From assembly GCA_039621445.1 (NCBI GenBank), contig CP154954.1, positions 124,001 to 188,000 on the forward strand: a DNA stretch of 64,000 nt, given 5' to 3'. The stretch is from Euglena gracilis. Its lineage: Eukaryota. The position numbers and the translations under genes are program-made. The notes beneath the pieces are model-generated. The model was not told the DNA's origin, did no database searches, and saw nothing but the letters and a program-made list of their open reading frames with translations. Shown one piece after another: positions 26,890 to 64,000 of the stretch (position 1 is its first letter; each line of letters opens with the position of its first letter).

Positions 26890-27620
26890 ATGTTATCCGA
26901 ATATGATAATCTAAACTTTGAAAAGAGCGTTGAAGGTAAAGGTTCTTTTCTTAATAAAAACCAAATAGAATCTTATTTGGCCTTACGAAAAAAGAAAGGA
27001 AAAATATATAATTTAGATTCTGAATTTTGGCGTGCTTTTTGTGAATCTCACAATATTAATATGGAATCTATTTTAAATTTATATATATCGAATAAATCTA
27101 TTTCTAGTAAGGATTGTTAAAATACTATCTTATATTGTTGGACGAGATTACCTTAAAGGCAGAACCGCTAACTTTTATGCTTACATTAAAGTGGATAAAC
27201 GATTAGATACGCGCTCGACTCGTTTTTTGGATTTGAGATTAAAAAAAGACTGTGAAGAGGTTACAGTTTGTGGAAATTATAGCGCAGCTAAGTCAGAAGA
27301 ATATTCTATCGATTATATAATAAAAATGGTTTTAAGTCAGAGAGCATATGGTATACAAGATTTTACTGATTCGTTAGTAATTAGTCCGTGTTTGTCTGTA
27401 AAATTAGATGATCATTACCAAATGTTGTCACTTTGGAACCGCATGATAAAACTAGCTGAAAAAGGCAATATTTTTAAGGCTCTATCTCTTTTAAAAAAAG
27501 AAAGGCCAGATTACTACATCAAAAAAATTCTGTTTAGCTTTGTAGCAATTAAAAAAAAATTTAAATGCAATTTTTATGTCTTTTAAAAATGATAAAAAAT
27601 TAAATAGGGAGGTTTTATGA
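26890..27620 (+). pseudogene. Degenerate geminivirus-like Rep paralog (ORF A), frameshifted; copy 1
   Basis: YIVGRDY...AYIKVDKRLDTRSTRFLDL...GNYSAAKSEEYSIDYIIK...RMIKLAEKGNIFKALSLLKKERPDYY. Confidence 0.65.
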
Positions 27621-28839
27621 ATTTATTAAATACGAACAAAAATAACATTGATAATAATATGAGACGTATTTCATCAAAAAAAGTTTTTTTAACCTATTCT
27701 TATTGTTCCGCAGATCTTTCAGAAATTTTAAATTTTTTTAAAAATAAATTTGAAGTAAAATATGGACTAGTTGATTATGCGTTGGTAAGATAGTTTCATA
27801 AAACCGGATACCCTCATGTACACTCATATTTCGTTTTTATTAAAAAAATAGACACTAAGGCAGCAAATTTTTTTGATATATATGTTGATTCTAAAACTTA
27901 TAGTGCATATGTTCAAACAGTTAATAACGAGAAAGATTTGTTGGACTATTTAACAAAACAAATATTTAACTTTGTAGATGCTTCAAAAAATTTCATGGCT
28001 TCTCCATCAATTTTGAAAAAGTATGGTAAATATTTTGAATATTGTCCATTAGAAGAAAGGATGATTGAATTAGCAAAAAAAGGAGAGATAGCGGATGCTA
28101 TGTTGTTGTTTGAAAAAGAAAAACCTTCTGAATTTGTATATAAAGGTGATGCTATTGAAAAACGACTTAGAAACATATATTTAAGCACAAGGTTAGGAGT
28201 TAAAGCAAAAATTAATTTTAATGACTATGTGATACCTCGAGATTTAAGGTGGATGTTAGACATTTATGAATCTTATCTGAATATGGGTGAAAATAAAGTA
28301 TTTTTAATTTTAGGCGGTGAGCTTAGGTATTTAATAGATTTTTTTGAATCTTATTTGCAATTCAAAGGCTTTTATCTTCTAGTAGTTAAGGAAGCTAAGG
28401 ATTTACTGCGATTTAGAAATACTTGTCATTACGATGCGATAATTTTTTCAGACTCTAGCATTTTAGAGTATCAAAATGTAGATGAGCTAAAAAATTTATT
28501 TAACTCTTTAGAAACAACGTTAAAAGTTCATAATCGAAAAATAGTGTTAAAGTACTTTTATCTCCTGCTTTACCAAAAGCTATAATGTCGTCAAAACCTT
28601 ATAAAGTTTTGGAACAATTTTTTAAAGAAAAAGGAATTGAAATGGAAGGCATACTACCTTATCAATTAAATGCCGATGATAAATTACTTCCCCCACATTT
28701 TCATAATTCAGAAATGGAAAAATCAAAGGAATACAGAGAACTTGAAAGTAAAACTAAAGTTTATATTCAAGAATTCTTAAAAAAAGCTAATATGAATGAT
28801 GAAAATGAAGGAAATGATAATCAAAAAAATACTAATTAA
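27617..28839 (+). pseudogene. Geminivirus/pCRESS-like HUH Rep with degenerate SF3 helicase (ORF B); copy 1
   Basis: FLTY, R*FHKTGYPHVH (TAG at 27791), FFDI and YLTK; the extra 1-nt homopolymer frameshift near 28540 is absent in copy 2. Confidence 0.8.
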
Positions 28840-29446
28840 TACGTTTTTATTATATGTTATTATTTTATTAGTAATAAAAATATTACTAATTTGTTATTTG
28901 TTATAAATATGTTATATTTATTCTAGGGCGGAAAATTAGTGGTAACATTAATTTGTTAAAAAATGCCTCTTGACATCAAAAGTTCGAATTAATTTTGAAA
29001 AGCATGAGGCATTTTTTTAACAATTATTTTAAGTTTAATAAAACTTAAAATTTTTTTTTAATAAATTTTTTTTTTTCTGTCCGCCCGGAGAATAAAAAAA
29101 TTTAGAAAATTATTGCTCTATTATTTTTGGGAGAATAAAATGAACAATTCAAAAACAAAACTTCAAAAAAAAAAATAAAGTTCGCTGAGAATAAAATACC
29201 AGCGGACACGTTTTTGTTATTTTTTTTTATAAATTTTTTATTAAAATTATTATAAATATTATTACTAGTATAATTATTATCAAATTAATTTTTATTTTAT
29301 TGCTAACTTGTTATTAAATTGTTATTAAATAGCTAATTTGTTGTATGAGCATTAAGCGTTAAATTAATTGGGTAGGTCAACAATAAACTATTGTTGAAAG
29401 AATATAGTTATAGTTAATTGGACAAATTTTTTATGGGAGAATAATT

Positions 29447-31177
29447 ATGGTTCAAAAATTAAGAAAAAAATACAAATTCAAAATTAACACCACAAGTTCG
29501 AGATATTATGGTAGTTATAATATAACACGTAATTGGAGAATTTTAATAAGGACAAATTTTCAATCTTTAATAGAAATGGATTATTCTTTTATTAAAAAAT
29601 GGCATGCAATAATAAACGACGATAAAATTTCTTTTATTATGTATACCATATGCAAATACGTGGATTTTCAGAAAGAAACCGATATTTTTATTAAAGCTTA
29701 CCTCGAACTAAAGAAAAATTGTCGGCCAAAATATTTAGAAGACTTGTTTAGTTTTGATAAAAATACAATTATAAGTATCGAAAAAGCTAAAGGGGATAGT
29801 CCTGGCAATGTTGGTGGTTTTATTATTAATTGCCGAGACCCCGAAGAGGAACTTTTTTGGAATAGAATACCGCGCTATGAATCTAAAAATAATAACTGTT
29901 TAAGTTTTAAATTTATTACTCAATATAATTTAATTGAGAAAGCAAGGGGAAATTATTTTCTACCTAAAATTTTCCTTGAAGTTTTAAAAAAAGGTCCGGA
30001 AGAGATTGATAAAGAAAAAAGAAAAACTGTTTTAGCAAAAAAAATCGATAATGACGAAGAAATAGAAAAAATAGAAATAAAAAAAGAAAAACAATTTGAA
30101 ATTAAGAGCTTTTTCGAGGATTCAGAATTTTTAGCAATAACCGAAAAATATACAAAAAAGTGTGAGGATTTAATAAATATTAACAATAAAGGGAAAAAAA
30201 TAAGAGATTTATTTTGCAATTATATTTTAGAATTATTAATTCTAGAAATAAATATTTTAAATTCTCAAAGTAAACCAAAATATTCGGATGTTTTTATTTG
30301 TAATTAAAAAAAAAAAAAGAACAATAATGAAATAGAGTGGTATTTTAATTGGATGTCTATTGATAGAATCCTTAAACAATTTTTATATAAATCAATTAAA
30401 CCGTGGCAAAATAAAAATATTGACGATATTAATCAAGGAGAAATTTATAATATAATTACTAATAAATCACTTACAGATAATACAATAAATTCTGTTAAAC
30501 GTTCTTTTCAAAATAGATTGAATGAAAATGTTAACTTAACGAACGTAAGAAAATCATACAAAAAAATAAAATTTGTTTCGTTTAGTTTAACTAAGTTTTA
30601 TAGCAATGAAAATAACGTTTTTTTTGTAAAATTAAAAATTGAGATTTTCGTATGTGATAGTTTTAATACTAGCCTTATAAGAGATTTTCTTAATTTAATT
30701 ACAAGTGAAGATATTCTATGGATAATGTATTCGGTAGAACCTGTAATATTAATACATACTGATTCCAAAGATAAAATTCTTCAAGAGACATATCTAAAAT
30801 TAGAATGTAAAGCAGTAAAATCACAGCTATATTTAAATATATATGTGATATTTGATGAAAAAAGAGTATGGACTAAAAATTTAGTTGAAAGCTTTTTTTC
30901 TACTATTAAAAATGATAAAATTTTAAATATATCAAACGTACCAAAACTAGGAGGTCTTTGTTTTTGTTATGTTCTTAATAACCTTTTGCTAAAAGCAAAT
31001 AAAAAAAATCAATTAGCTGAAATTAAAATATATCAGCATACAAAATATGAAATTCCTTCCAAATATAAAATCAAATTTATCAACGAATCGCCATTATTTT
31101 TAAGAGAATATACTGGGTCTTTGAACTTCTTATATATTTTACTTAGTATGTTACTAGATAATATAACTAATAAATAA
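29447..31177 (+). CDS. Uncharacterised ORF C with degenerate circovirus-type Rep domain(s); split into 286 and 274 aa in copy 1
   Basis: Same sequence as the 576-aa ORF at 47734-49464 but broken at a poly-A run near 30305. Confidence 0.7.
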
Positions 31178-32042
31178 TTAAGTTATTATATTATTCCATT
31201 AAAATTTTTTAAAGTCCACCAAGAATAAAATTCTAGTGGACACGTTTGTTATTAAATTGTTATTATTAGTATAATTATTATAAAATTATTTAATTAAAAA
31301 TATAAATAATTTAGTTAGCTAGTTGTTATTAAAATGTTATTAACTTTTTTAAAGTTCACCGAGAATAAAATCCTAGTGGACACGTTTTTGTTTGTTTAGT
31401 TGGTTTTAGTTTAAGGTCAGCAGGAACAACTTTTATAACCTTTTATTATGGTATCGTACTTTAATAAATCTAAATTTAAGGAATTCTGCAACATATTCTA
31501 AAGATAAAGGGCATTTTGGAGATGTAAGAAATACTTTCCTAGCTGACAGTCGGTATTTAGCGTTTTTACCAACGTTTTTTTCAAATTTATTAAAGGAACT
31601 TTTCTTTGATTTTACTTTTTTCTAACGTAATTTTTTGATTAGTTTTATTTGGAGTTATAACCTATTATTAATCTATTAACCTATTATTAATCTATTAACT
31701 TATTATTATATTATTATTATTATTAGGGGCAATTTACTTAGCAAATTCTCGGTCGTTACTGACAAAACGGGGTATGGTTTTGTAAACATTAACCACGCAA
31801 TAACACAATCACAATATTGCACTAATAACTTAAAAAAGTCACTCACATGATATTATTACTAAATAAATGTAATCTGCCTCAGGCAAACGGTTTTGAACTA
31901 TGTGTATGAAAAGTAATGAGAATTCTTTACAATTAAAGGGATGTAACATGTAAATCGTTAAATACGACTGCATACAACTCCTATTTAAGATACTATGTAC
32001 GGGAAATAAGCAAAAATAATACATTATACAAGGAAACATACT

Positions 32043-32251
32043 ATGGTACGTAAAAAGATATATTAAATGAAAGGTTAAAAAATTACACAATAGAAACAGA
32101 CGTGTCCCGTAAGGTGAGGCAAAAAGTTGCGTTCCGTTTAGCGGCTAAAAACATATTTTTGATGTATAATAAAGTTTCATCTTCATTTACTGTGGAGGAT
32201 ATTAGTTATTCTTTACTTGAGAAGCTGAAGCCATATGGTGTATTATCGTAG
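32043..32251 (+). pseudogene. Rep N-terminal fragment (ORF D); copy 1
   Basis: FRLAAKNIFLMY motif-I-like segment. Confidence 0.6.
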
Positions 32252-32443: not shown

Positions 32444-38010
<5,567 letters not shown>

Positions 38011-38136
38011 TTAAAATAATTTCGTTTTATCTCAAATTTTTTTGAATATTTTTTAGTATTTTTTAAATACGTTAAATTTTATAATTTTTAGAATAATGTT
38101 TAAATTTTTAAGTTCAAAAAGATCTTTTATTTTTTT

Positions 38137-38301
38137 ATGGCGGTTCCAAAAAAGAAAATGTCCAAATCTCGTAGAAACTCAAGGAAAAGTAACTGGAAAA
38201 AAAAGGTGCTTAAAAAAGTTCTTTTTGCTCTTTCTTTAGGAAAATCTTTTGAAGCGAATACTAATGTTAATTTTTCTTTTGGAGACAAATTACCACAATA
38301 G
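38137..38301 (+). CDS. rpl32: 50S ribosomal protein L32
   Basis: MAVPKKKMSKSRRNSRKSNWKKK..., 54 aa. Confidence 0.93.
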   Translation: MAVPKKKMSKSRRNSRKSNWKKKVLKKVLFALSLGKSFEANTNVNFSFGDKLPQ

Positions 38302-38335
38302 TGCTGTGATAATATGTAAAATTGTAATTATTTTT

Positions 38336-39292
<957 letters not shown>

Positions 39293-39403
39293 ATAAGGTT
39301 TTTCTTTGAGATAGGAAATTTCAAAGGACATATTTATATTTTATTAAAAAAATTTTTTAATATAGAATTTTGTTTATTGTTAAATTTATTTTTAGTTATT
39401 TTT

Positions 39404-41529
39404 ATGAAATTAAATTCTATTGAAGTAATAGGTAAGTTATGGATTTCTTAAAAAATTTTTTATATTTATTTTAGATTTATTATGAATCATATAATTTTTT
39501 TAATTTAATTTTTTTAAAAATTTTTTATTTAACTAGAAAATCTTCTATTGCCAAAATAATTCTCTTCCTTCCTAAAGATGGTGGTGGTGAAATTTTGATT
39601 AATGGAGAAAAAGCTTTTAACTATTTGCAGTTGCGAGTTCTAAAAGTCTTTATTTAATTTAAATTAAGATTTAAAAAAAATAAAAAAAAGAAATTTAAAA
39701 TTTAATAATATAATGAAAAAAAATAGTGAAAGGAAGAGTTAATAAGATTTTATTATAATAAATTAAAAAATAATAAATTTTAATTTAATAAAAATTTTCT
39801 AATTTATTATAATAAATTTTTAATAAATTATTATATCAATTTTTTTAATTTATTTAGATTTTAATAGATAATAATATTATTGTCATAATAAACTTTTCAT
39901 TAATACAAAATTTTTATGAAAAAATTATTTTATAAATTTTTGGAATTTTTCAAAATTTCTTATTTATTTATATCAACTAATAATAGAAAAATTGTTAAAA
40001 TAATTTTTTTATAGTTTTTTAGAAAACTAATTATTATTTATAAAATTTTTAAAAAATTTTTATTTTATAAATTGTTGTGTTTTAAAAAGAAAAATATTAG
40101 TTTATCAAATATATTCTTTAAAAATTAAAAGAATTAAAATAGGTATTGATTTTTAATTAAATTTGTTATAAACATTTTTAAAATATAAGAAAATTTAAAA
40201 TGACTAAATATTAGAAAAATTTAAAAATAAAAATAAATGTTTTTTTAACAGGTTAGAACAAATTTTTTAAAAAAATTCTTTTAATTTATCTTTTATAAAT
40301 TAAAAAAAAAAAGTTTAAACTTTTTTATATTTTTGTTTTTATAAAAAGATAAGTATTTTATTATAATATATATTAAATTAATCTTAAACTATTTAAAAAA
40401 CAAATATAAAAATAAATCTAATTATTATTGTTTTTATCTTTTTTATAAAATTTTAATTAAAAGTATTTATGAAAGTTTTCTATTTTTATTTTAATACTTT
40501 TTATGAGCTGATATTATTGATGTTTTTTAACTATAAATTTATAATTTTAATTTTATCAACTAATAATTTTTGAGAAAAAGAATTTTTATGTATTTTTATT
40601 TTTGTTTTTTTAATAACTATTTTTTATTATAATCTAAATTTTTTAATAAATAAAATTGAAAGTTTATCTTCTTTTCTTTTTTTAAAAATTAAAAAATTTT
40701 TTTTTTTTTTTAAATTTTATTAATAAATTGAAAAATATAAGAATTTAAATTTTTTTTATTTTTAGATATTATTTATTTTGATTTTTGTATAGAAAATAAT
40801 TTAAATATGTACTAAATTAAAAAAATATAATAATTAAATTTTTAACTACAAAGTTTAAACATTTTTTTAAAAAAAATTTATTTATTATCAAAATTTTATT
40901 TGTATAAAATAAGTTATTTTAGTAATAATTTTTATTATATTTATAAAAAATTGTACTCAAAATGATGTAATATACTTTTTTTGTTAAAAAAAAAAAAAAT
41001 TTATTTTTTTTTTTATTTATTGTAAAAAATTTTATTTTATGTAAATGTTGCTAATATTAAAATCATTAGCGTTTTTTATAGAAAAGGAAGACAAAAAAAA
41101 AAAAACAGAAAGTGAACGGTTTTTTAACTTAAAAAAATTTATTGTTAAAGAAGAATTAGTTTTGTATATTTAAGTCCTATTTTTTTTTTGTATTAACTTT
41201 GTAAACTATTTATTACATAAGTTTTTCAAATATTTTTTCATTAATTATTTCATTTTATAAAAATAGTTGTTTATATTATATAATTTCTTTTTAATTTTAA
41301 AAACAATTTTATTTTAATAATAGGGAAAGTATAGTTTTGTATAATCGTTACAATCTCTAACAATAGATTATTAATTAAAAAAAGAAAATAGTATCATCTA
41401 TTTCAAAAGCTTAATCTTACATTTTTTAATGAAATAAAAAAGATGTTTAGTTTGTAACAGAACTTTTTTCTAGTTTATTAATACGGTTTGAAAAAAGCGC
41501 GCAAAGCGCCACAATTCTCAAAAAGATAG
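39404..41529 (+). CDS. rps9: 30S ribosomal protein S9, multi-intron; middle is low-quality sequence
   Basis: MKLNSIEVIGK|RKSSIAKI...GEILINGEKAFNYLQ and C-terminal GLKKARKAPQFSKR*. Confidence 0.85.
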
Positions 41530-41626
41530 AATCTTCTTATTTTTTAAGAATAACTTCTTAATAGGTATATGTAAAAATTTTTGTAGAAAAATTTTATTTT
41601 TTTATTATTGAAGAATTATTTTTATT

Positions 41627-41935
41627 ATGTCAACAGAAAGATGAAATTTTAGAAAGACTTAAAAAATTACTTTACTAGAAGCTTACGAGCTAGTTAAACA
41701 AATTTTGGGGTTTTGTAAAAAAATTTTATTTTTTAGCTTTTATTATTATATTTTTAAAATAATATTTTTTTTATTTTTAGGATTTAGAATATTATTACTT
41801 TTTTGAAAATAACTTCGGTGTTGTTGCTACTATTACTTTGTCAGCCAGTAGTAGGATTCCATCTATTTTACCTTCTAAAGCGGATGATACTGTAGTGCTG
41901 GAAAAAACTGAATTTTATATTATCATCAGAAAATG
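41627..41935 (+). CDS. rpl12: 50S ribosomal protein L12, 5' part, error-laden and truncated
   Basis: MST...EILERLKK...LLEAYELVKQI, then ENNFGV and EKTEF after a short intron. Confidence 0.65.
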
Positions 41936-44621
41936 AAACATTTTCTTTTTTTAAGTCCGTAGTTTAAAACAACTAAAAATCTTATTGAAACTTAAAAAAT
42001 CTTAAATTTTTCTAGAAATTAAAAATTTAAACTAAATTAAAAAATCAAAAATATTAAATAAAATTAGATAAAAAAAATTATTTTTATTTATTTATAATAG
42101 TTTTTCAAATTTATTGATTTTTTTATTATTAAAATTTAAAGAAAGTTCTATTTTAATAAATAAAATATCTATTGGTTTATAAAAAGATAAATTATTCTTA
42201 TTAAAAAGACATTATTTTTAGAAAAATAAATAAATTTTGAAATAATGTATTTTTTTTTTATTTAAAATTTTAACTTATAAAGAAACTTTAAATAATATTT
42301 ATTTTTATTCTTACTCACTTATATTGTTTTTATTATTTTAAAGATTTTATCTTTTAAAAACAATTTTTTTAATTTATTTAATTTTGTAAAATTTTATTTG
42401 AGGAATTAAAAAGTTATTTTATAAAAAAATTTCATAAATTTTCATGTTGTTTACTTTTATTTTCATTAAAAAAAATATGTTTTATTTCATTAGAAACTAA
42501 TAATTTTTTTCTTTTTAATTAAAAATTAAATATATTAAAAAATTTTTTATTGTTTTTTTATATTTTGTTGTATTTGTTTTGATTAAGAAGCAAAAAATCA
42601 ATAAATAGTTTTTTTTCAAATATAAAAATATTATTAACTTATAATATACAATTTTTTAGAAAAATTTTAATTAAATCTTTTTTACAATATTTGATAATTT
42701 AAAAAATAAAATAAAATTTTCTAATTAATTAAAATATATATTAAAATAATTTCTTATAATGTTTTATTATAAAATAAAGACAATTATTAAAAAAAATCGT
42801 AGTTATGCTATTTTAATAGAAACTACTTGTAAAACAAGGAAAGATTACATCACATAACTTTTTAATTAAGATCACTTAAATTGTTATTGTAGCTTCTGTT
42901 TAGCATGACATAATTTGTTTATTTATTAACGAGGGTCTTATAAATTGATCTATTTATATGTAAAATTGAAGGTAAAACCATAAGAAATCTAAAAAGAACC
43001 ATGGTTCGTTTAATAATTTAGTTTCGAATGGATGACTTATATTCCACCTCACGTGATGAATTTATCAGAAACTCTTCAAAATTAATCAGTTAAAAATTAT
43101 GTCAGGTCTTTACAAATAAATGAATTAATTTAAATGTATCTTGTTAAGCATTGGATATAAATCTATAGACCAGTAATTTTTAATTATTTTATTCATGAAA
43201 TAAATCGAAAATCATAGTTTTAAGAAACGCTATTAATAGTCGTGATATTGGCAAATCATATTAAATTTAAGTATAAACTATACAAAAATGAAGCAATTTT
43301 TGATATAAAATTTTTATATGTTACTCACGGAAACATTAGTAAGGTCATTTAACTTCACTAGATTTATTTAGTCTATAATAATTATATTTAGCATATTTAG
43401 ATTGATTGTAAAAGAACCAATAAACTGCATTTTCATCTATAAAAAATATGATAGTTCATCGGATGCTATCAATGAAATGAAGCTTGTTCGCATCTAATCT
43501 TTGGAAGAGTTTCCAAAGTCTGAGTAAACAGTTTCTTTACAAATTGCGTATCTATTTCATAGTCTATTCTACGCAAATTTTAAACAAATACTGTAACAGT
43601 TAAAGCAGATTCATTTGCTATTTTCCACTTTTGTTTAAATGTAAAAAAATTCCGAATAACTAAACTATTGTTAAAATTATCACAACGAAATCGAACATTT
43701 TACGCAGAAGGTCTAGACATATTAATAATAAGAATAAGGTTATCAAATATGTACATATATAAAATAGATAAGAATTAAAATTTTGTTACGATGGAAAATT
43801 TAATGAATGGCTTTTACGAATGCTGATTATAGAATACGTGGCCAGATCTAAGTTACTTTACTGAGATATTATTATCTAGTACTAATGACTTTAAATACTT
43901 ACTAAAATTCTGACAAAGATACTATGCATACAGATAATTAACTACAATTTTATTTACTTAACATTATGCCTTTAATGACTTTTAATATTTTTATAAATAG
44001 AATCAAAACAAAATAATGCTTGTTTGAGATTTAACTTTACTTTTACTTTTAACCATATTAGTTAATTATTTTTATTTTCTGCATTAACATTTTGTTTGTG
44101 CGTGGTAGCTTTGAATATTTTCTAAAATTTAAAATTTACTTTTTTATAAATTATTTTTTATAAATAAGAAAAATTTAAAATTTTAAGATTAATATAATTT
44201 ATAGTTTATTTTGAAAATGTATATTTAAGTCTTGTTTTAGAAGAATATATTTAAACTGTTATTTTATAACTATTTAAAGTGTTTTTACATGTTTTAGAAA
44301 AAATTTTTAATAGTTTTAATTTTTTTAAAAACAATACTTGATAAACATAATTTGTAAGATATAATATTTGAATCTAAAAAATTTTTAAATTTGTATGCAA
44401 TGGTAAGGAATGTGTATTTTTATGTAAATTATTTACAAAATTTTTGTTTTTTTTTAGTACTTTTGATTCTATCACAATTTAGTTTTAGTCAATTTTTAAG
44501 CAAATTTTAAAAGATTTTTTGTTAAATGCCGTATGAGATTTAAATCTCCCGTACTGTATTGTTGGGGAAAAAATTAACTTAATTTATTAATTTTTAATGA
44601 TAAATTTTTTTCTATCTAAAT

Positions 44622-44918
44622 ATTCCAATATTGACTGGATTAGATATAGGTATAATCTTAGTTCGTCAAAAGTCTTCTTCCGATTGGACTAGTTTGGTTG
44701 TAACAGGAGGTTTTGCATTAATTAATAGCAATAACGTTACTATATTAGTCAATGAAGCAGAATTTGGTTCCGAAATTAATGTAGAACAAGCACAGATTTC
44801 TTATAATTCATCTAAACATGCTTTAGAAATGAATAAAGATATTAAGAGAAAATTTGAATTAACTTTAAATTTAAAAAAAGCACGTGCTAGATTCCAGGTC
44901 ACTCAACTTAAAAAGTAG
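44622..44918 (+). CDS. atpE: ATP synthase epsilon, last exon only (duplicate)
   Basis: Same as 26322-26618. Confidence 0.9.
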   Translation: MPILTGLDIGIILVRQKSSSDWTSLVVTGGFALINSNNVTILVNEAEFGSEINVEQAQISYNSSKHALEMNKDIKRKFELTLNLKKARARFQVTQLKK

Positions 44919-45189
44919 TTTAATTTATTGTTTTATTAAATTATACGTTTTTAATTTATGTTGATAGATTTTTTATAATAAAAATTTTTTCAATTATTAA
45001 TAGTTTAAAATTATGTTTGTTTTATAGTATATTATTACTTAAACTATAAAATAGTGTAGTTAGTGTATTGAAACTGACAGTTTGATTTAAACGTTTTTGG
45101 TTTCGATTCACTCATTTATTCTTTAATTTAATTAAATTAAAATTCAAAATTCGACTTTTAGGCAAGAATTTAAGTAAAAAAAAAATGTT

Positions 45190-45907
45190 ATGTTATCCGA
45201 ATATGATAATCTAAACTTTGAAAAGAGCGTTGAAGGTAAAGGTTCTTTTCTTAATAAAAACCAAATAGAATCTTATTTGGCCTTACGAAAAAAGAAAGGA
45301 AAAATATATAATTTAGATTCTGAATTTTGGCGTGCTTTTTGTGAATCTCACAATATTAATATGGAATCTATTTTAAATTTATATATATCGAATAAATCTA
45401 TTTCTAGTAAGGATTGTTAAAATACTATCTTATATTGTTGGACGAGATTACCTTAAAGGCAGAACCGCTAACTTTTATGCTTACATTAAAGTGGATAAAC
45501 GATTAGATACGCGCTCGACTCGTTTTTTGGATTTGAGATTAAAAAAAGACTGTGAAGAGGTTACAGTTTGTGGAAATTATAGCGCAGCTAAGTCAGAAGA
45601 ATATTCTATCGATTATATAATAAAAATGGTTTTAAGTCAGAGAGCATATGGTATACAAGATTTTACTGATTCGTTAGTAATTAGTCCGTGTTTGTCTGTA
45701 AAATTAGATGATCATTACCAAATGTTGTCACTTTGGAACCGCATGATAAAACTAGCTGAAAAAGGCAATATTTTTAAGGCTCTATCTCTTTTAAAAAAAG
45801 AAAGGCCAGATTACTACATCAAAAAATTTGTAGCAATTAAAAAAAATTTAAATGCAATTTTTATGTCTTTTAAAAATGATAAAAAATTAAATAGGGAGGT
45901 TTTATGA
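45190..45907 (+). pseudogene. Degenerate geminivirus-like Rep paralog (ORF A), frameshift near 45410; copy 2
   Basis: The 76-aa ORF continues in the +1 frame into ILSYIVGRDYLKGRTANFYAYIKVDKRLDTRSTRFLDL...IDYIIK; its stop overlaps the ORF B start (ATGA). Confidence 0.65.
45892..45900 (+). promoter_or_regulatory. Shine-Dalgarno sequence of ORF B
   Basis: AGGGAGG a few nt upstream of the ATG at 45904. Confidence 0.65.
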
Positions 45908-47127
45908 ATTTATTAAATACGAACAAAAATAACATTGATAATAATATGAGACGTATTTCATCAAAAAAAGTTTTTTTAACCTATTCTTATTGTTCCGCAG
46001 ATCTTTCAGAAATTTTAAATTTTTTTAAAAATAAATTTGAAGTAAAATATGGACTAGTTGATTATGCGTTGGTAAGATAGTTTCATAAAACCGGATACCC
46101 TCATGTACACTCATATTTCGTTTTTATTAAAAAAATAGACACTAAGGCAGCAAATTTTTTTGATATATATGTTGATTCTAAAACTTATAGTGCATATGTT
46201 CAAACAGTTAATAACGAGAAAGATTTGTTGGACTATTTAACAAAACAAATATTTAACTTTGTAGATGCTTCAAAAAATTTCATGGCTTCTCCATCAATTT
46301 TGAAAAAGTATGGTAAATATTTTGAATATTGTCCATTAGAAGAAAGGATGATTGAATTAGCAAAAAAAGGAGAGATAGCGGATGCTATGTTGTTGTTTGA
46401 AAAAGAAAAACCTTCTGAATTTGTATATAAAGGTGATGCTATTGAAAAACGACTTAGAAACATATATTTAAGCACAAGGTTAGGAGTTAAAGCAAAAATT
46501 AATTTTAATGACTATGTGATACCTCGAGATTTAAGGTGGATGTTAGACATTTATGAATCTTATCTGAATATGGGTGAAAATAAAGTATTTTTAATTTTAG
46601 GCGGTGAGCTTAGGTATTTAATAGATTTTTTTGAATCTTATTTGCAATTCAAAGGCTTTTATCTTCTAGTAGTTAAGGAAGCTAAGGATTTACTGCGATT
46701 TAGAAATACTTGTCATTACGATGCGATAATTTTTTCAGACTCTAGCATTTTAGAGTATCAAAATGTAGATGAGCTAAAAAATTTATTTAACTCTTTAGAA
46801 ACAACGTTAAAAGTTCATAATCGAAAAAATAGTGTTAAAGTACTTTTATCTCCTGCTTTACCAAAAGCTATAATGTCGTCAAAACCTTATAAAGTTTTGG
46901 AACAATTTTTTAAAGAAAAAGGAATTGAAATGGAAGGCATACTACCTTATCAATTAAATGCCGATGATAAATTACTTCCCCCACATTTTCATAATTCAGA
47001 AATGGAAAAATCAAAGGAATACAGAGAACTTGAAAGTAAAACTAAAGTTTATATTCAAGAATTCTTAAAAAAAGCTAATATGAATGATGAAAATGAAGGA
47101 AATGATAATCAAAAAAATACTAATTAA
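45904..47127 (+). pseudogene. Geminivirus/pCRESS-like HUH Rep with degenerate SF3 helicase (ORF B); one frame of 408 codons with an internal TAG at 46078
   Basis: Motif I FLTY (45973), motif II PHVH (46099-46110), GRS-like NFFDI, motif III YLTK (46234), Walker-B-like YDAIIFSD (46717). Confidence 0.82.
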
Positions 47128-47204
47128 TACGTTTTTATTATATGTTATTATTTTATTAGTAATAAAAATATTACTAATTTGTTATTTGTTATAAATATGT
47201 TATA

Positions 47205-47385
47205 TTTATTCTAGGGCGGAAAATTAGTGGTAACATTAATTTGTTAAAAAATGCCTCTTGACATCAAAAGTTCGAATTAATTTTGAAAAGCATGAGGCAT
47301 TTTTTTAACAATTATTTTAAGTTTAATAAAACTTAAAATTTTTTTTTAATAAATTTTTTTTTTTCTGTCCGCCCGGAGAATAAAA
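47205..47385. repeat. Nested inverted repeats (also at about 28917-29097)
   Basis: Outer TTTATTCTAGGGCGGA / TCCGCCCGGAGAATAAA; inner TTGTTAAAAAATGCCTC / GAGGCATTTTTTTAACAA; adjacent ATTTTAAGTT / AACTTAAAAT hairpin. Confidence 0.85.
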
Positions 47386-47463
47386 AAATTTAGAAAATTA
47401 TTGCTCTATTATTTTTGGGAGAATAAAATGAACAATTCAAAAACAAAACTTCAAAAAAAAAAT

Positions 47464-47506
47464 AAAGTTCGCTGAGAATAAAATACCAGCGGACACGTTT
47501 TTGTTA
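47464..47506 (+). repeat. Hairpin repeat, unit 1 of 3
   Basis: AAAGTTCGCTG-AGAATAAAATAC-CAGCGGACACGTTTTTGTTA; also at 29178. Confidence 0.85.
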
Positions 47507-47733
47507 TTTTTTGTTATAAAGTTGTGATTAAAATCATTATAAATATTATTACTAGTATAATTATTATCAAATTAATTTTTATTTTATTGCTAACTTGTTA
47601 TTAAATTGTTATTAAATAGCTAATTTGTTGTATGAGCATTAAGCGTTAAATTAATTGGGTAGGTCAACAATAAACTATTGTTGAAAGAATATAGTTATAG
47701 TTAATTGGACAAATTTTTTATGGGAGAATAATT

Positions 47734-49464
47734 ATGGTTCAAAAATTAAGAAAAAAATACAAATTCAAAATTAACACCACAAGTTCGAGATATTATGGTA
47801 GTTATAATATAACACGTAATTGGAGAATTTTAATAAGGACAAATTTTCAATCTTTAATAGAAATGGATTATTCTTTTATTAAAAAATGGCATGCAATAAT
47901 AAACGACGATAAAATTTCTTTTATTATGTATACCATATGCAAATACGTGGATTTTCAGAAAGAAACCGATATTTTTATTAAAGCTTACCTCGAACTAAAG
48001 AAAAATTGTCGGCCAAAATATTTAGAAGACTTGTTTAGTTTTGATAAAAATACAATTATAAGTATCGAAAAAGCTAAAGGGGATAGTCCTGGCAATGTTG
48101 GTGGTTTTATTATTAATTGCCGAGACCCCGAAGAGGAACTTTTTTGGAATAGAATACCGCGCTATGAATCTAAAAATAATAACTGTTTAAGTTTTAAATT
48201 TATTACTCAATATAATTTAATTGAGAAAGCAAGGGGAAATTATTTTCTACCTAAAATTTTCCTTGAAGTTTTAAAAAAAGGTCCGGAAGAGATTGATAAA
48301 GAAAAAAGAAAAACTGTTTTAGCAAAAAAAATCGATAATGACGAAGAAATAGAAAAAATAGAAATAAAAAAAGAAAAACAATTTGAAATTAAGAGCTTTT
48401 TCGAGGATTCAGAATTTTTAGCAATAACCGAAAAATATACAAAAAAGTGTGAGGATTTAATAAATATTAACAATAAAGGGAAAAAAATAAGAGATTTATT
48501 TTGCAATTATATTTTAGAATTATTAATTCTAGAAATAAATATTTTAAATTCTCAAAGTAAACCAAAATATTCGGATGTTTTTATTTGTACTTATAAAAAA
48601 AAAAAGAACAATAATGAAATAGAGTGGTATTTTAATTGGATGTCTATTGATAGAATCCTTAAACAATTTTTATATAAATCAATTAAACCGTGGCAAAATA
48701 AAAATATTGACGATATTAATCAAGGAGAAATTTATAATATAATTACTAATAAATCACTTACAGATAATACAATAAATTCTGTTAAACGTTCTTTTCAAAA
48801 TAGATTGAATGAAAATGTTAACTTAACGAACGTAAGAAAATCATACAAAAAAATAAAATTTGTTTCGTTTAGTTTAACTAAGTTTTATAGCAATGAAAAT
48901 AACGTTTTTTTTGTAAAATTAAAAATTGAGATTTTCGTATGTGATAGTTTTAATACTAGCCTTATAAGAGATTTTCTTAATTTAATTACAAGTGAAGATA
49001 TTCTATGGATAATGTATTCGGTAGAACCTGTAATATTAATACATACTGATTCCAAAGATAAAATTCTTCAAGAGACATATCTAAAATTAGAATGTAAAGC
49101 AGTAAAATCACAGCTATATTTAAATATATATGTGATATTTGATGAAAAAAGAGTATGGACTAAAAATTTAGTTGAAAGCTTTTTTTCTACTATTAAAAAT
49201 GGTAAAATTTTAAATATATCAAACGTACCAAAACTAGGAGGTCTTTGTTTTTGTTATGTTCTTAATAACCTTTTGCTAAAAGCAAATAAAAAAAATCAAT
49301 TAGCTGAAATTAAAATATATCAGCATACAAAATATGAAATTCCTTCCAAATATAAAATCAAATTTATCAACGAATCGCCATTATTTTTAAGAGAATATAC
49401 TGGGTCTTTGAACTTCTTATATATTTTACTTAGTATGTTACTAGATAATATAACTAATAAATAA
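47734..49464 (+). CDS. 576-aa uncharacterised ORF C with degenerate circovirus/nanovirus-type Rep domain(s)
   Basis: Long intact ORF preceded by GGGAG; RNWRILI...IKAYLELKKNCRPKYLEDLF...ISIEKAKGDS resembles the Viral_Rep pattern without catalytic residues. Confidence 0.75.
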   Translation: MVQKLRKKYKFKINTTSSRYYGSYNITRNWRILIRTNFQSLIEMDYSFIKKWHAIINDDKISFIMYTICKYVDFQKETDIFIKAYLELKKNCRPKYLEDLFSFDKNTIISIEKAKGDSPGNVGGFIINCRDPEEELFWNRIPRYESKNNNCLSFKFITQYNLIEKARGNYFLPKIFLEVLKKGPEEIDKEKRKTVLAKKIDNDEEIEKIEIKKEKQFEIKSFFEDSEFLAITEKYTKKCEDLININNKGKKIRDLFCNYILELLILEINILNSQSKPKYSDVFICTYKKKKNNNEIEWYFNWMSIDRILKQFLYKSIKPWQNKNIDDINQGEIYNIITNKSLTDNTINSVKRSFQNRLNENVNLTNVRKSYKKIKFVSFSLTKFYSNENNVFFVKLKIEIFVCDSFNTSLIRDFLNLITSEDILWIMYSVEPVILIHTDSKDKILQETYLKLECKAVKSQLYLNIYVIFDEKRVWTKNLVESFFSTIKNGKILNISNVPKLGGLCFCYVLNNLLLKANKKNQLAEIKIYQHTKYEIPSKYKIKFINESPLFLREYTGSLNFLYILLSMLLDNITNK

Positions 49465-49497
49465 TTAAGTTATTATATTATTCCATTAAAATTTTTT

Positions 49498-49680
49498 AAA
49501 GTCCACCAAGAATAAAATTCTAGTGGACACGTTTGTTATTAAATTGTTATTATTAGTATAATTATTATAAAATTATTTAATTAAAAATATAAATAATTTA
49601 GTTAGCTAGTTGTTATTAAAATGTTATTAACTTTTTTAAAGTTCACCGAGAATAAAATCCTAGTGGACACGTTTTTGTTA
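49498..49680 (+). repeat. Hairpin repeat, units 2 and 3
   Basis: AAAGTCCACCAAGAATAAAATTCTAGTGGACACGTTT and AAAGTTCACCGAGAATAAAATCCTAGTGGACACGTTT; also at 31211 and 31351. Confidence 0.85.
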
Positions 49681-49948
49681 TTTTTATTGGTTTTAGTTTA
49701 AGGTCAGCAGGAACAACTTTTATAACCTTTTATTATGGTATCGTACTTTAATAAATCTAAATTTAAGGAATTCTGCAACATATTCTAAAGATAAAGGGCA
49801 TTTTGGAGATGTAAGAAATACTTTCCTAGCTGACAGTCGGTATTTAGCGTTTTTACCAACGTTTTTTTCAAATTTATTAAAGGAACTTTTCTTTGATTTT
49901 ACTTTTTTCTAACGTAATTTTTTGATTAGTTTTATTTGGAGTTATAAC

Positions 49949-49992
49949 CTATTATTAATCTATTAACCTATTATTAATCTATTAACTTATTA
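49949..49992 (+). repeat. Short 19-bp tandem repeat
   Basis: (CCTATTATTAATCTATTAA) x2 plus a partial copy; also near 31660. Confidence 0.75.
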
Positions 49993-50328
49993 TATTATAA
50001 TTAATAATAGGGGGCAATTTACTTAGCAAATTCTCGGTCGTTACTGACAAAACGGGGTATGGTTTTGTAAACATTAACCACGCAATAACACAATCACAAT
50101 ATTGCACTAATAACTTAAAAAAGTCACTCACATGATATTATTACTAAATAAATGTAATCTGCCTCAGGCAAACGGTTTTGAACTATGTGTATGAAAAGTA
50201 ATGAGAATTCTTTACAATTAAAGGGATGTAACATGTAAATCGTTAAATACGACTGCATACAACTCCTATTTAAGATACTATGTACGGGAAATAAGCAAAA
50301 AATAATACATTATTCAAGGAAAACTACT

Positions 50329-50538
50329 ATGGTACGTAAAAAAGATATATTAAATGAAAGGTTAAAAAATTACACAATAGAAACAGACGTGTCCCGTAAG
50401 GTGAGGCAAAAAGTTGCGTTCCGTTTAGCGGCTAAAAACATATTTTTGATGTATAATAAAGTTTCATCTTCATTTACTGTGGAGGATATTAGTTATTCTT
50501 TACTTGAGAAGCTGAAGCCATATGGTGTATTATCGTAG
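50329..50538 (+). pseudogene. Rep N-terminal fragment (ORF D); copy 2
   Basis: AFRLAAKNIFLMYNKV...LLEKLKPYGVLS*. Confidence 0.62.
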
Positions 50539-50730
50539 ATACGTATATTGACTGTGAAACTAACGTAACTGACTTATCTAGAGTAAAAGAAACTAAACGT
50601 GAGTATTATATTTTTAGACCTCAAATAGACAAAAATTAGTAGCAAAACTTATTAATAATAATAATGTAAATTATCTATAAATAACTGTAAAGTGATTTTT
50701 CGAATATAATTTTTATTTTATTATTAAAAT

Positions 50731-56295
<5,565 letters not shown>

Positions 56296-56421
56296 TTAAA
56301 ATAATTTCGTTTTATCTCAAATTTTTTTGAATATTTTTTAGTATTTTTTAAATACGTTAAATTTTATAATTTTTAGAATAATGTTTAAATTTTTAAGTTC
56401 AAAAAGATCTTTTATTTTTTT

Positions 56422-56586
56422 ATGGCGGTTCCAAAAAAGAAAATGTCCAAATCTCGTAGAAACTCAAGGAAAAGTAACTGGAAAAAAAAGGTGCTTAAAA
56501 AAGTTCTTTTTGCTCTTTCTTTAGGAAAATCTTTTGAAGCGAATACTAATGTTAATTTTTCTTTTGGAGACAAATTACCACAATAG
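56422..56586 (+). CDS. rpl32: 50S ribosomal protein L32; copy 2
   Basis: Same as 38137-38301. Confidence 0.93.
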   Translation: MAVPKKKMSKSRRNSRKSNWKKKVLKKVLFALSLGKSFEANTNVNFSFGDKLPQ

Positions 56587-56620
56587 TGCTGTGATAATAT
56601 GTAAAATTGTAATTATTTTT

Positions 56621-57576
<956 letters not shown>

Positions 57577-57687
57577 ATAAGGTTTTTCTTTGAGATAGGA
57601 AATTTCAAAGGACATATTTATATTTTATTAAAAAAATTTTTTAATATAGAATTTTGTTTATTGTTAAATTTATTTTTAGTTATTTTT

Positions 57688-58590: not shown

Positions 58591-58609
58591 TTCAACGTTA
58601 TTTGATTGT

Positions 58610-59510: not shown

Positions 59511-59621
59511 AAAAATAACTAAAAATAAATTTAACAATAAACAAAATTCTATATTAAAAAATTTTTTTAATAAAATATAAATATGTCCTTTGAAATTTCC
59601 TATCTCAAAGAAAAACCTTAT

Positions 59622-60578
<957 letters not shown>

Positions 60579-60903: not shown

Positions 60904-64000
<3,097 letters not shown>

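What the first reader, a model, noticed from the sequence alone, without database searches (positions are those of the whole stretch)
44920..50730. The atpE-rbcL spacer is an integrated array of decayed rolling-circle Rep (CRESS virus/plasmid-like) genes
Seen: about 5.8 kb of intron-free, co-oriented ORFs in an otherwise intron-rich plastome. Four of them (A, B, C, D) carry HUH-Rep-like motifs, of both geminivirus-like and circovirus-like types, with hairpin repeats between them. Known: such Reps initiate replication of CRESS-DNA viruses and of phytoplasma and red-algal plasmids; as I recall, ORFs in this Euglena spacer are annotated only as hypothetical. Inference: this is the relic of a multi-Rep plasmid or virus, or of repeated captures, in a secondary green plastid. 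Single Rep hits may already appear in endogenous-virus surveys, but I know of no description of the array organisation. A second copy lies at 26620-32440.
Basis: partly seen in the sequence, partly recalled or inferred. Interest (0 to 1): 0.92.

Follow-up and report, generated by a model that had tools for sequence, protein, structure and literature searches.

The report
Rep gene relics in Euglena plastome
The long spacer between atpE and rbcL in this Euglena gracilis chloroplast DNA holds broken remains of replication-initiator (Rep) genes of the geminivirus type, most likely left by small Rep-only DNA circles that once integrated there, next to a long open gene of unknown origin.

Summary
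The 5,812-nt atpE-rbcL spacer (44919-50730) carries four pieces of geminivirus-type HUH Rep genes. B (45904-47127) is a near-full Rep: Pfam Gemini_AL1 32.2 bits against a cutoff of 24, and 8.9e-69 against a profile of 55 environmental relatives. It has one in-frame TAG and has lost its helicase catalytic residues. A (45416-45868) is a truncated paralogue without the HUH motif. ORF C (576 aa) shows no Rep likeness in any test and remains an orphan. Nothing circovirus-like was found. The closest intact relatives (30-34% identity, full length) lie on 1.3-2.4 kb environmental circles that mostly encode Rep alone, so the likely donor was a Rep-only plasmid or satellite-like replicon. The frames are far more open than neutral decay predicts (B 1 stop against 38 expected; C 0 against 52), so exaptation is not excluded. 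The "second copy" is part of a 13.9-kb duplication of the window, probably an assembly artefact. Public records call these ORFs hypothetical, and eight literature searches found no description. Verdict: a new member of a known kind (organelle-integrated Rep relics).

The parts
44631..44918 (+). Last exon of atpE (left flank of the spacer)
   Evidence: Pfam ATP-synt_DE_N 29.5 bits and ATP-synt_DE 21.9 bits; confirmed in the read-through frame scan.
45190..45420 (+). 76-aa ORF just upstream of Rep piece A. It may be A's frameshifted N-terminus, but this is not supported.
   Evidence: ORF listed. No Pfam or PHROGs match. Family HMM score 1.1 bits, reached by 207 of 2000 shuffles.
45416..45868 (+). 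Rep piece A. It covers profile positions 54-195 of 408 (the motif II region, motif III and the central domain). The HUH motif is replaced (NFY where relatives have HxH). There is no helicase part. The frame is open (138-aa ORF 45491-45907; a 176-aa form in public records).
   Evidence: tblastn with B: 26% identity over 149 columns, E 7.5e-12. Family HMM 106.5 bits, iE 4.5e-34. 0 stops against 13.3 expected. P0161.
45904..47127 (+). Rep B, near full length (407 codons, profile positions 12-394 of 408). Motif I FLTYSYC at 45973-45993; in-frame TAG at 46078-46080 (codon 59); motif II HVH at 46102-46110; motif III YLTK at 46234-46245; degenerate Walker A region at 46600-46620; Walker B remnant IIFSD at 46726-46740.
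   Evidence: Read-through translation P0001. Pfam Gemini_AL1 32.2 bits against cutoff 24. PDB geminivirus Rep domains E 2.7e-6 to 5.6e-4. Family HMM 220.7 bits. 14 of 35 conserved columns differ, 9 of them among the 13 helicase columns. AF2 pLDDT 89.2. Foldseek 7vg8 TM 0.86, 6we0 TM 0.81, plus full-length Rep and SF3 helicases. BFVD begomovirus and genomovirus Reps.
47463..47615 (+). Repeat block with hairpin element copy 1 (stem GTTCGCTG/CAGCGGAC, 12-nt loop), 270 nt upstream of ORF C.
   Evidence: Repeat family D1 and related families. Best window-wide matches are only the other copies. RNA fold -12.1 kcal/mol, z -3.27; DNA fold z -1.77.
47734..49464 (+). ORF C, 576 aa, orphan. Intact here and in E. 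gracilis var. bacillaris (586 aa); split into 295 + 274 aa in the E. gracilis record and 286 + 274 aa in the window's other copy.
   Evidence: ORFs. Public names. No family or homologue outside its own species. AF2 pLDDT 32.7, unusable. 0 stops against 52.1 expected.
49468..49701 (+). Two tandem copies (140 nt apart) of the hairpin repeat block, just downstream of ORF C (hairpins at 49497-49545 and 49637-49685).
   Evidence: Families D1 and D2. The pattern is found only in this spacer and its duplicate. Copy 2 folds well (z -3.3 to -3.4); copy 3 does not (z -0.4 to -0.6). One G-C to A-T compensatory change between copies 1 and 2, read from the sequences.
49747..49893 (-). Rep piece E, a minus-strand N-terminal relic (profile positions 5-53) containing YRLSARKVFLTSPKC (motif I).
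   Evidence: tblastn with B E 0.019. Family HMM 20.1 bits, iE 7.5e-8. 30.2 bits as an isolated peptide, reached by 0 of 2000 shuffles.
49945..50011 (.). 19-nt tandem repeat (2.6 copies) plus a 12-nt perfect inverted repeat with a 21-nt loop. It lies between the divergent Rep relics E and D. Iteron-like in position only.
   Evidence: TRF score 91. Inverted repeat 49967-49978 / 50000-50011. No functional test; AT-rich, so chance is not excluded.
50383..50532 (+). Rep piece D, an N-terminal relic (profile positions 10-57) containing FRLAAKNIFLMY. It lies within the 69-aa ORF 50329-50538, which ends 192 nt before the rbcL ATG (50731).
   Evidence: Family HMM 15.7 bits, iE 1.6e-6; 1.5e-5 in the whole-window scan. 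23.8 bits, reached by 0 of 2000 shuffles. Not found by Pfam or by blastp against B.
27116..32245 (+). The same array in the window's duplicated segment (A 27116-27526; B 27632-28809 with a frameshift; C 29447-31177 split in two; E 31606-31460 on the minus strand; D 32096-32245).

Best explanation
The atpE-rbcL spacer of this Euglena gracilis plastid DNA is a graveyard of integrated small circular replicons whose only gene was a geminivirus-type Rep (an HUH nuclease, a central domain and an SF3 helicase). Such Reps nick a hairpin origin and start rolling-circle replication. One or several circles, or a multimer, entered the ancestral short atpE-rbcL junction. They were then duplicated, truncated and, in one case, inverted. 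What remains is one near-full Rep (B), one truncated paralogue (A) and two 50-residue N-terminal stubs (D, E). None can act as an initiator now. B is cut by a stop between motifs I and II, and its Walker A, Walker B, motif C and arginine-finger residues are replaced. A lacks the HUH histidines and the helicase. The composition has drifted to that of the plastome. Shown here: the homology, the lesions, the position, and the nature of the closest relatives. Inferred: integration from a free circle, the order of events, and the present lack of function. ORF C and the hairpin repeats travel with the array, but their origin is unknown.
For: Homology. B matches Pfam Gemini_AL1 above its cutoff, geminivirus Rep structures by sequence and by fold (7vg8 TM 0.86; also full-length Rep and SF3 helicases), and begomovirus, genomovirus and CRESS Reps.

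Relatives. A search of 1.84 billion representatives gave 355 relatives at E<=1e-3 and 8 at <=1e-30. Full-length matches at 30-34% identity keep motifs I-III and Walker A/B. 14 of 14 aligned members, B included, match Gemini_AL1.

Profile scan. A profile of 55 of these relatives finds B, A, D and E, and nothing else at domain E<=0.1 in six frames of the 64-kb window apart from their duplicates. D and E beat 2000 of 2000 shuffles.

Lesions. There is a TAG at codon 59 in both window copies, and a 58-aa product was seen on 8 contigs. 9 of 13 conserved helicase columns are changed, against 5 of 22 in the nuclease and central part.

Donor type. The closest intact relatives sit on contigs of 1.0-3.8 kb. 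Terminal redundancy indicates circles for 5 of the 7 closest metagenome loci and for L001, with units of about 1337, 1397, 1452, 1637, 2387 and 2455 bp. Five of these six show no second ORF of 120 aa or more.

Place. Public records put the ORFs in the 'rbcL-atpE intergenic region' of E. gracilis. atpE/rbcL adjacency is a conserved euglenid cluster (passage in PMC5572947). 20 run rows from 12 studies hold at least half of the stretch's words.

Tree. B groups with two short fragments from other assemblies (SH-aLRT 100). A falls in the same 13-row clade (SH-aLRT 97) as the intact circles' Reps.
Against: The frames are much more open than neutral decay in 22-27% GC DNA predicts: B has 1 stop against 37.9 expected, A 0 against 13.3, C 0 against 52.1, and no shuffle of B or C came below 20 and 38 stops. 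So 'dead relic' may be wrong for the B tail (281-333 aa products in public records), for A and for C. No free circle, junction or target duplication was shown. The 92-nt direct repeat flanking A+B is weak (score 38 against a background maximum of 32). The hairpin loops share nothing evident with hairpins in the relatives' circles. They also fold at least as well as plus-strand RNA as they do as DNA, so they may be transcript 3' stem-loops. The relatives' hosts are unknown. C, 30% of the spacer, is unexplained.
Confidence: 0.75

Rival explanations
1. Domesticated Rep. The pieces came from an integrated Rep replicon, but the B tail (central domain plus an ATPase-dead helicase fold), A and the orphan ORF C are kept by selection as plastid proteins with a new role, for example DNA binding or oligomer scaffolding. 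They would not be junk.
For: There is a strong deficit of stops: B 1 against 37.9 expected, A 0 against 13.3, C 0 against 52.1. Many catalytic helicase residues are replaced while the frame stays open and the fold is still confidently predicted. A fragment from another assembly (P0008, 73% identical) shares the loss of the Walker A GK, so that loss predates the split between the two sources and the frame persisted afterwards. C is intact in var. bacillaris and in one window copy.
Against: B carries an in-frame stop that separates motif I from the rest. In the relative's contig the B region is called as two short proteins (89 and 114 aa), which suggests breaks there. C is split in the E. gracilis record and in the other window copy. 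No expression data were obtained. The high AF2 confidence for B comes largely from the alignment of intact relatives. Near-identical strains give no dN/dS signal.
Confidence: 0.2
2. Still-mobile element. The hairpin-bounded 2.0-kb unit (hairpin - ORF C - hairpin, hairpin) is a more-than-unit-length integrated copy of a circle that can still be released or replicated, with Rep supplied in trans.
For: Direct repeats of a hairpin-containing block flank C at a spacing of 2034 and 2174 nt, within the size range of the relatives' circles. In L001, hairpins lie about 260-350 nt upstream of the single ORF, as copy 1 does for C.
Against: No functional Rep is encoded here. C has no likeness to Rep or to anything else. 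One of the three hairpins does not fold. No canonical nonanucleotide lies in the loops; the only TAATATTAC sites, 2 in the window against 3.9 expected by chance, lie inside ORF C and its duplicate on the minus strand. No reads were laid, so no junction evidence exists.
Confidence: 0.03
3. Not plastid, or not real. The Rep pieces reflect chance motif matches in AT-rich DNA, a native plastid ycf or maturase gene, or a chimeric assembly joining a foreign circle to plastid DNA.
For: The window is visibly misassembled or rearranged: a 13.9-kb direct duplication and inverted duplications of up to 10.8 kb. Pfam alone sees only B.
Against: The E-values are far beyond chance (8.9e-69 and 4.5e-34), and no other hit at domain E<=0.1 appears in 64 kb x 6 frames of equally AT-rich sequence. 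No maturase or ycf family match was found. The same ORFs are annotated in two independent public E. gracilis plastome records, in this intergenic region. The stretch is held by runs of 12 studies. Its GC (0.22-0.28) equals that of the plastome.
Confidence: 0.02

Closest known systems
Geminiviridae / Genomoviridae Rep (Pfam PF00799 Gemini_AL1 nuclease + central domain + SF3 helicase)
   Same: B has the same domain order and motifs I (FLTY..C), II (HxH) and III (YxxK). It passes the Gemini_AL1 curated cutoff. The nuclease fold superposes on the TYLCV and WDV Rep domains (TM 0.81-0.86). The best BFVD matches include begomovirus and genomovirus Reps over 355-400 columns.
   Different: Sequence identity is only about 21-25% in the nuclease domain. 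Gemini_AL1_M matched 1 of 14 family members, and no Pfam table lists it for B. There is no capsid or other viral gene in the spacer. The gene is interrupted and its ATPase motifs are gone. It sits in a plastid genome rather than in a 2.5-3 kb viral circle.
Uncultured Rep-only circles of 1.3-2.4 kb from metagenomes and sequencing-run assemblies (e.g. loci L081, L082, L084, L085, L001; proteins P0004-P0006, P0009, P0010, P0013, P0017)
   Same: These are the closest relatives found: 30-34% identity over nearly the whole of B. A and B fall inside their clade. The DNA is low in GC (0.26-0.41). Each has a single Rep ORF and a short non-coding region with a hairpin.
   Different: They are intact (motifs I-III and Walker A/B present) and free circles. 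Their hosts are unknown. One (L082) has two in-frame TGA codons read as Trp in its database protein, which indicates a code-4 compartment. Their hairpin loops do not resemble those of the spacer.
Geminivirus-related plasmid replicases of red algae (Pyropia/Porphyra) and their integrated copies in Phytophthora mitochondrial DNA
   Same: This is the same kind of event: a plasmid Rep of geminivirus affinity found integrated in an organelle genome. Sources: PMC3198968, passage seen; PMC4814812, section 8 read; PMC6668415, passages seen.
   Different: Those cases are mitochondrial (Phytophthora) or free plasmids. Here the host is a secondary green plastid, and there are four pieces rather than one. 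No red-algal plasmid sequence was at hand, so direct relatedness was not tested. None of the three papers mentions euglenids (0 occurrences).
Endogenous geminivirus-like elements in plant nuclear genomes
   Same: These are also degraded Rep genes, often arranged as tandem or partial multimers. PMC7758297 was seen only in the search listing; the multimer point is recalled.
   Different: They are nuclear rather than plastid, derive from true geminiviruses and are usually accompanied by other viral genes.
Alphasatellites (about 1.3-1.4 kb Rep-only circles; recalled, not tested)
   Same: The closest intact relatives found here are also 1.3-1.6 kb circles encoding only a Rep.
   Different: From recall, alphasatellite Reps are nanovirus-like. 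The family here matches Gemini_AL1.

Membership tests
HUH Rep of the geminivirus type (Pfam Gemini_AL1) | Profile match above the curated cutoff | tested here: met
   B: 32.2 bits against cutoff 24, E 1.2e-7. A, D and E do not reach Pfam, but they match the family-specific profile.
HUH Rep of the geminivirus type (Pfam Gemini_AL1) | Motifs I, II (HUH) and III (catalytic Tyr, YxxK) in order | tested here: met
   B keeps T26/Y27, H67/H69 and Y111/K114 in columns conserved in 57-63 of 64 relatives. A has lost HUH. D and E hold the motif I region only.
HUH Rep of the geminivirus type (Pfam Gemini_AL1) | Uninterrupted reading frame giving one nuclease polypeptide | tested here: not met
   TAG at codon 59, between motifs I and II, in both window copies. 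The column holds Glu in 59 of 64 relatives.
HUH Rep of the geminivirus type (Pfam Gemini_AL1) | HUH nuclease fold | tested here: met
   AF2 model pLDDT 89.2. Foldseek 7vg8 TM 0.86 and 6we0 TM 0.81. Caveat: the model rests on an alignment of intact relatives.
SF3 helicase domain of CRESS/geminivirus Reps | Walker A GxxxxGK[ST], Walker B acidic pair, motif C Asn, arginine finger | tested here: not met
   Conserved G236, G238, K239, D278, N326, R343 and R344 are L, Y, L, S, S, M and E in B. 9 of 13 conserved helicase columns differ. The fold is still predicted and matches SV40 LTag, E1 and AAV Rep.
Geminiviridae (virus family) | Capsid gene and the Gemini_AL1_M central domain, on a 2.5-3 kb circle with a TAATATTAC hairpin | tested here: not met
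   No coat or other viral family in six frames. Gemini_AL1_M matched 1 of 14 family members, and no Pfam table lists it for B. TAATATTAC occurs twice in the window against 3.9 expected, and not in a hairpin loop.
Circovirus/nanovirus-type Rep (Pfam Viral_Rep) | Profile match or the motifs CFTLNN / HLQG / YCxK | tested here: not met
   No such family at E<=10 in any of six read-through frames. ORF C gave no Rep signal.
Active rolling-circle replicon (plasmid or virus) | Origin hairpin with a nick site recognised by its Rep; free circular form | not testable with these tools
   Hairpin repeats exist but show no link to Rep. No whole genome is held.
   No such Pfam match for any ORF or frame of the spacer.

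The most novel reading that the evidence does not exclude
The spacer is not junk. A plastid of a secondary alga captured Rep-only circles and has kept three long frames under selection: the ATPase-dead B tail, A, and the orphan 576-aa ORF C. These would be domesticated plastid proteins. In this reading the hairpin-bounded 2.0-kb C unit is a former satellite-like circle that rode on the same Rep. That would be the first Rep domestication, and the first trace of a Rep/satellite system, inside a plastid.
Probability: 0.2. Interest if true: 0.8.

Novelty: new member of a known kind. Interest (0 to 1): 0.6.

Why it matters
Plastid genomes rarely take up foreign DNA. The known cases involve plasmid ORFs in red-algal and diatom plastids and plasmid Rep genes in Phytophthora mitochondria. 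This finding shows that the E. gracilis plastome, a reference genome, carries several geminivirus-type Rep relics in ORFs that public records still call uncharacterised. It implies that Rep-only circles once replicated in, or at least reached, a euglenid plastid. It ties them to a large, uncharacterised group of 1.3-2.4 kb environmental circles, one of which uses TGA as Trp, a hint that some live in organelles or Mollicutes. It also explains why the ancestral atpE-rbcL junction is 5.8 kb long here. Finally, it raises a testable question: the frames are unusually open, so have Rep-derived proteins been put to use in the plastid? It is not a new kind of system.

Tried and rejected
ORF C as a Rep or any known family. 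Pfam and PHROGs gave none. Word-indexed homologue searches at 'near' and 'shorter' lengths found only its own species. The ESM Atlas gave no usable hit. hhalign against the Rep alignment gave probability 0.15%. tblastn and phmmer against 104 loci and all fetched proteins found nothing. The IMG/VR scan confirmed 0 of 36 pattern hits. AF2 gave pLDDT 32.7, so no fold search was run. By eye, residues 58-130 of C resemble motif I and the following helix, but the profile score was reached by 82 of 2000 shuffles, so this was rejected as evidence.

The 76-aa ORF as A's N-terminus: not significant (207 of 2000 shuffles).

D against B by blastp: no significant alignment. D rests on the family profile only.

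The 92-nt direct repeat flanking A+B as an integration scar: score 38 against a background maximum of 32, too weak.

Hairpin loops against the relatives' hairpins, and the geminivirus nonanucleotide: no link.

Bacterial plasmids (PLSDB, tblastn with B): no match, so no measurable tie to phytoplasma-type plasmids by this test.

Rfam at gathering threshold found only 10 tRNAs in the window and nothing in the spacer.

The first metagenome scan with alignment A1 failed because no stretch was conserved enough; it was repeated with six closer sequences.

No whole genome is held.

The TAG, the indels between the two copies, expression and circular junctions therefore stay unchecked by reads.

Earlier findings of this scan: three look-ups, nothing.

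Literature. Eight searches found no paper linking euglenid plastid DNA to a Rep. Subscription-journal euglenid plastome papers and all supplements were not searchable, so a prior mention there cannot be excluded.

Full report
**What is there**

The window is AT-rich plastid DNA (GC about 0.2-0.3). The atpE last exon ends at 44918. rbcL starts at 50731 and continues through several frames, so it contains introns. The spacer 44919-50730 (5,812 nt) holds these plus-strand ORFs:
- 76 aa (45190-45420)
- 138 aa (45491-45907)
- 58 aa (45904-46080)
- 300 aa (46225-47127)
- 576 aa (47734-49464)
- 69 aa (50329-50538)

Database look-ups by exact sequence show that these are the ORFs annotated as 'Uncharacterized 35.4 kDa protein in rbcL-atpE intergenic region' of Euglena gracilis, and as hypothetical proteins of E. 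gracilis var. bacillaris.

**Rep B**

The 58-aa and 300-aa ORFs share one frame and are separated by a stretch with a single TAG. Read through with X, the 407 codons (P0001) match several resources:
- Pfam Gemini_AL1: 32.2 bits against a cutoff of 24 (E 1.2e-7).
- Geminivirus Rep nuclease domains in the PDB: 6q1m 2.7e-6, 7vg8 3.5e-6, 1l2m 5.6e-4.
- An exhaustive HMMER search of 1.84 billion representatives: 355 relatives at E<=1e-3, 77 at <=1e-10 and 8 at <=1e-30. The best match nearly the whole of B at 30-34% identity.

These relatives are intact. They have FLTYPQC, HxH, YxxK, G.PGTGKT, IFDD, a motif C Asn and an RR finger.

I audited the 35 columns in which at least 80% of 64 relatives share a residue.
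- B keeps the nuclease residues T26, Y27, H67, H69, Y111 and K114.
- B has the stop in a column that is Glu in 59 of 64 relatives.
- B differs in 9 of the 13 conserved helicase columns, which cover Walker A, Walker B, an R-E pair, motif C and the arginine pair. It differs in only 5 of the 22 columns in the nuclease and central part.

With the 65-row alignment, AlphaFold gives pLDDT 89.2.
- Foldseek superposes the N-terminal domain on the TYLCV and wheat dwarf virus Rep domains (TM 0.86 and 0.81).
- It matches the rest to a full-length CRESS Rep, SV40 large T, papillomavirus E1 and AAV Rep helicases.
- BFVD returns begomovirus, genomovirus and uncultured CRESS Reps over 355-400 columns.
- The model leans on intact relatives, so it shows family membership, not present function.

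**Other Rep pieces**

I built a profile from 55 relatives, none of them from this organism, and ran it on the spacer and flanks read through stops in six frames.

| Piece | Coordinates | Strand | Score | iE | Profile positions |
|---|---|---|---|---|---|
| B | 45919-47097 | + | 220.7 bits | 8.9e-69 | 12-394 of 408 |
| A | 45416-45868 | + | 106.5 bits | 4.5e-34 | 54-195 |
| E | 49893-49747 | minus | 20.1 bits | 7.5e-8 | 5-53 |
| D | 50383-50532 | + | 15.7 bits | 1.6e-6 | 10-57 |

Three controls support the weaker pieces:
- The same scan over all 64 kb finds only these pieces and their duplicates at domain E<=0.1.
- D and E, tested as isolated peptides, score 23.8 and 30.2 bits. None of 2000 shuffles reached these scores; the shuffle maxima were 8.6 and 7.6.
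- A is also found by tblastn with B (26% identity over 149 columns, E 7.5e-12).

A has NFY in place of HxH, keeps YxxK and the central domain, and stops where B begins. In a quick ML tree of 55 rows, B groups with two short fragments from other assemblies (P0007, 89% identical; P0022, 51-56% identical; SH-aLRT 100). A lies in the same 13-row clade as the intact circle Reps (SH-aLRT 97) but is not resolved as B's sister. An old in-place duplication and separate captures from one plasmid lineage therefore both remain possible.

**What is not Rep**

ORF C, 30% of the spacer, failed every test.
- Pfam and PHROGs: no match.
- Two homologue searches found only its own species.
- The Atlas gave no usable hit, and hhalign gave probability 0.15%.
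- Local searches against 104 loci and all fetched proteins found nothing.
- The IMG/VR scan confirmed 0 of 36 pattern hits.
- The Rep profile score was no better than shuffles: 82 of 2000 for residues 41-170, 208 of 2000 for residues 1-200, and 860 of 2000 for residues 201-576.
- The AlphaFold model is unusable (pLDDT 32.7).

No Viral_Rep or other circovirus-type match appears in any frame.

**Repeats**

A block of 49-150 nt with a hairpin occurs at 47463, 270 nt upstream of C. It occurs twice more in tandem at 49497 and 49637, just downstream of C. It is found nowhere else in the window except in the duplicate. Copies 1 and 2 fold better than shuffles: as plus-strand RNA z is -3.3 for both, and as DNA z is -1.8 and -3.4. 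Copy 3 does not fold. Between copies 1 and 2, one stem pair changes from G-C to A-T, as read.

The loops resemble neither the geminivirus nonanucleotide nor the hairpins of the relatives' circles. These elements may be origin relics or ordinary transcript 3' stem-loops, and I cannot tell which.

Between the divergent stubs E and D lie a 19-nt tandem repeat (2.6 copies, 49945-49993) and a 12-nt perfect inverted repeat. This is iteron-like in position only.

A 92-nt direct repeat brackets A+B (44934-45025 and 47118-47209, 71% identical). It is barely above background (38 against 32).

**Where it came from**

The closest intact relatives sit on very short contigs.
- The seven checked in the protein collection sit on contigs of 1,524-2,743 bp.
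- IMG/VR gave 121 confirmed loci of 254 candidates. The best was the 2,508-bp L001.
- The metagenome scan gave 24 of 148, all on contigs of 1,070-3,759 bp.

Terminal redundancy marks circles in L001 and in five of the seven closest metagenome loci.

| Locus | Terminal redundancy | Unit length |
|---|---|---|
| L001 | 121 nt, exact | 2,387 bp |
| L081 | 108 of 114 | about 1,637 bp |
| L082 | 127 nt, exact | 1,397 bp |
| L084 | 194 of 195 | about 1,337 bp |
| L085 | 119 of 120 | about 1,452 bp |
| L087 | 123 nt, exact | 2,455 bp |

L083 and L086 show no terminal redundancy. A 2,387-bp contig also appears among the 18 members of L001's protein cluster. L001, L081, L082, L084 and L085 show no second ORF of 120 aa or more, whereas L087 has a second 290-aa ORF. 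The donor type is therefore best described as a Rep-only plasmid or satellite-like circle, not a capsid-bearing virus.

L082's Rep has two in-frame TGA codons that its database protein reads as Trp, so at least one member lives where code 4 is used. tblastn of B against 72,556 bacterial plasmids found nothing.

**State today**

As a replication initiator the array is dead: B has a stop between motifs I and II and no ATPase motifs, A has no HUH, and D and E are stubs. The frames, however, are strikingly open for DNA in which about 9% of off-frame codons are stops. B has 1 stop against 37.9 expected, A has 0 against 13.3, and C has 0 against 52.1. In 2000 shuffles the minimum was 20 stops for B and 38 for C.

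A fragment from another assembly (P0008, 73% identical) already lacks the Walker A GK. The ATPase was therefore lost before that split while the frame persisted. This keeps a domestication reading alive, at about 0.2.

On the other side, the relative's B region is called as two short proteins. C is split in the E. gracilis record and in the window's other copy.

**The 'second copy'**

44015-57941 repeats 25715-39657 at 99.5% identity. The window also contains inverted duplications, including a self-inverted segment at 53199-64000. The 30 differences in the 7.5 kb compared are mostly single-base homopolymer indels, clustered substitutions and one 12-nt indel. They break B and C in the first copy. 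This looks like a noisy or chimeric long-read assembly, or rearranged subgenomic molecules. It is not a second insertion.

**Known or new**

Precedents exist:
- Geminivirus-related replicases on red-algal plasmids, with integrated copies in Phytophthora mitochondrial DNA. Sources: PMC3198968, passage; PMC4814812, section 8; PMC6668415, passages.
- Endogenous geminivirus-like elements in plant nuclei (PMC7758297, search listing only).

None of the three papers read mentions euglenids. Eight full-text searches found nothing on a Rep in a euglenid plastome. Two euglenid plastome papers treat free-standing ORFs as uncharacterised or maturase-like (passages). Subscription papers and supplements were not searchable.

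I therefore rate it a new member of a known kind. It is of moderate-to-good interest, because the host genome is a classic reference and because the open frames and the Rep-only circle family invite direct tests.

Noticed in passing
window 25715-39657 vs 44015-57941; 13728-18701 vs 24008-19032; 53199-64000 (self-inverted); 12345-13770 vs 15744-17161: The window is full of large near-identical direct and inverted duplications (98.6-99.7% identical). This looks like a noisy or chimeric long-read assembly, or rearranged plastid molecules. The gene content of the window is therefore much less than 64 kb.
   Followed up: partly
window 3001-4000 and 40001-43000: There are extremely AT-rich stretches (GC 0.079, 0.088 and 0.121). 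One includes a 123-nt, poly-T-rich tandem array at 3710-4040.
   Followed up: no
L082:1-1524: The Rep of this 1,397-bp circle has two in-frame TGA codons that the database protein (P0011) reads as Trp. The circle probably lives in a code-4 compartment, such as a mitochondrion or a Mollicute.
   Followed up: partly
proteins P0167 (210 aa, ENA contig of 45,328 bp) and P0039 (200 aa, contig of 9,247 bp): These are AT-rich, fragment-length relatives of the same Rep family, on much longer contigs than the circles. They may be further organelle-integrated relics in other organisms.
   Followed up: no
window 48585-48600 and 30300-30310: Whether ORF C is one 576-586-aa frame or two (295/286 + 274 aa) depends on a poly-A tract. 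The E. gracilis record and one window copy split it; var. bacillaris and the other window copy do not.
   Followed up: partly
proteins P0004, P0005, P0006, P0010, P0013: Several intact relatives carry basic N-terminal extensions with RGRPKK-like (AT-hook-like) motifs upstream of motif I.
   Followed up: no
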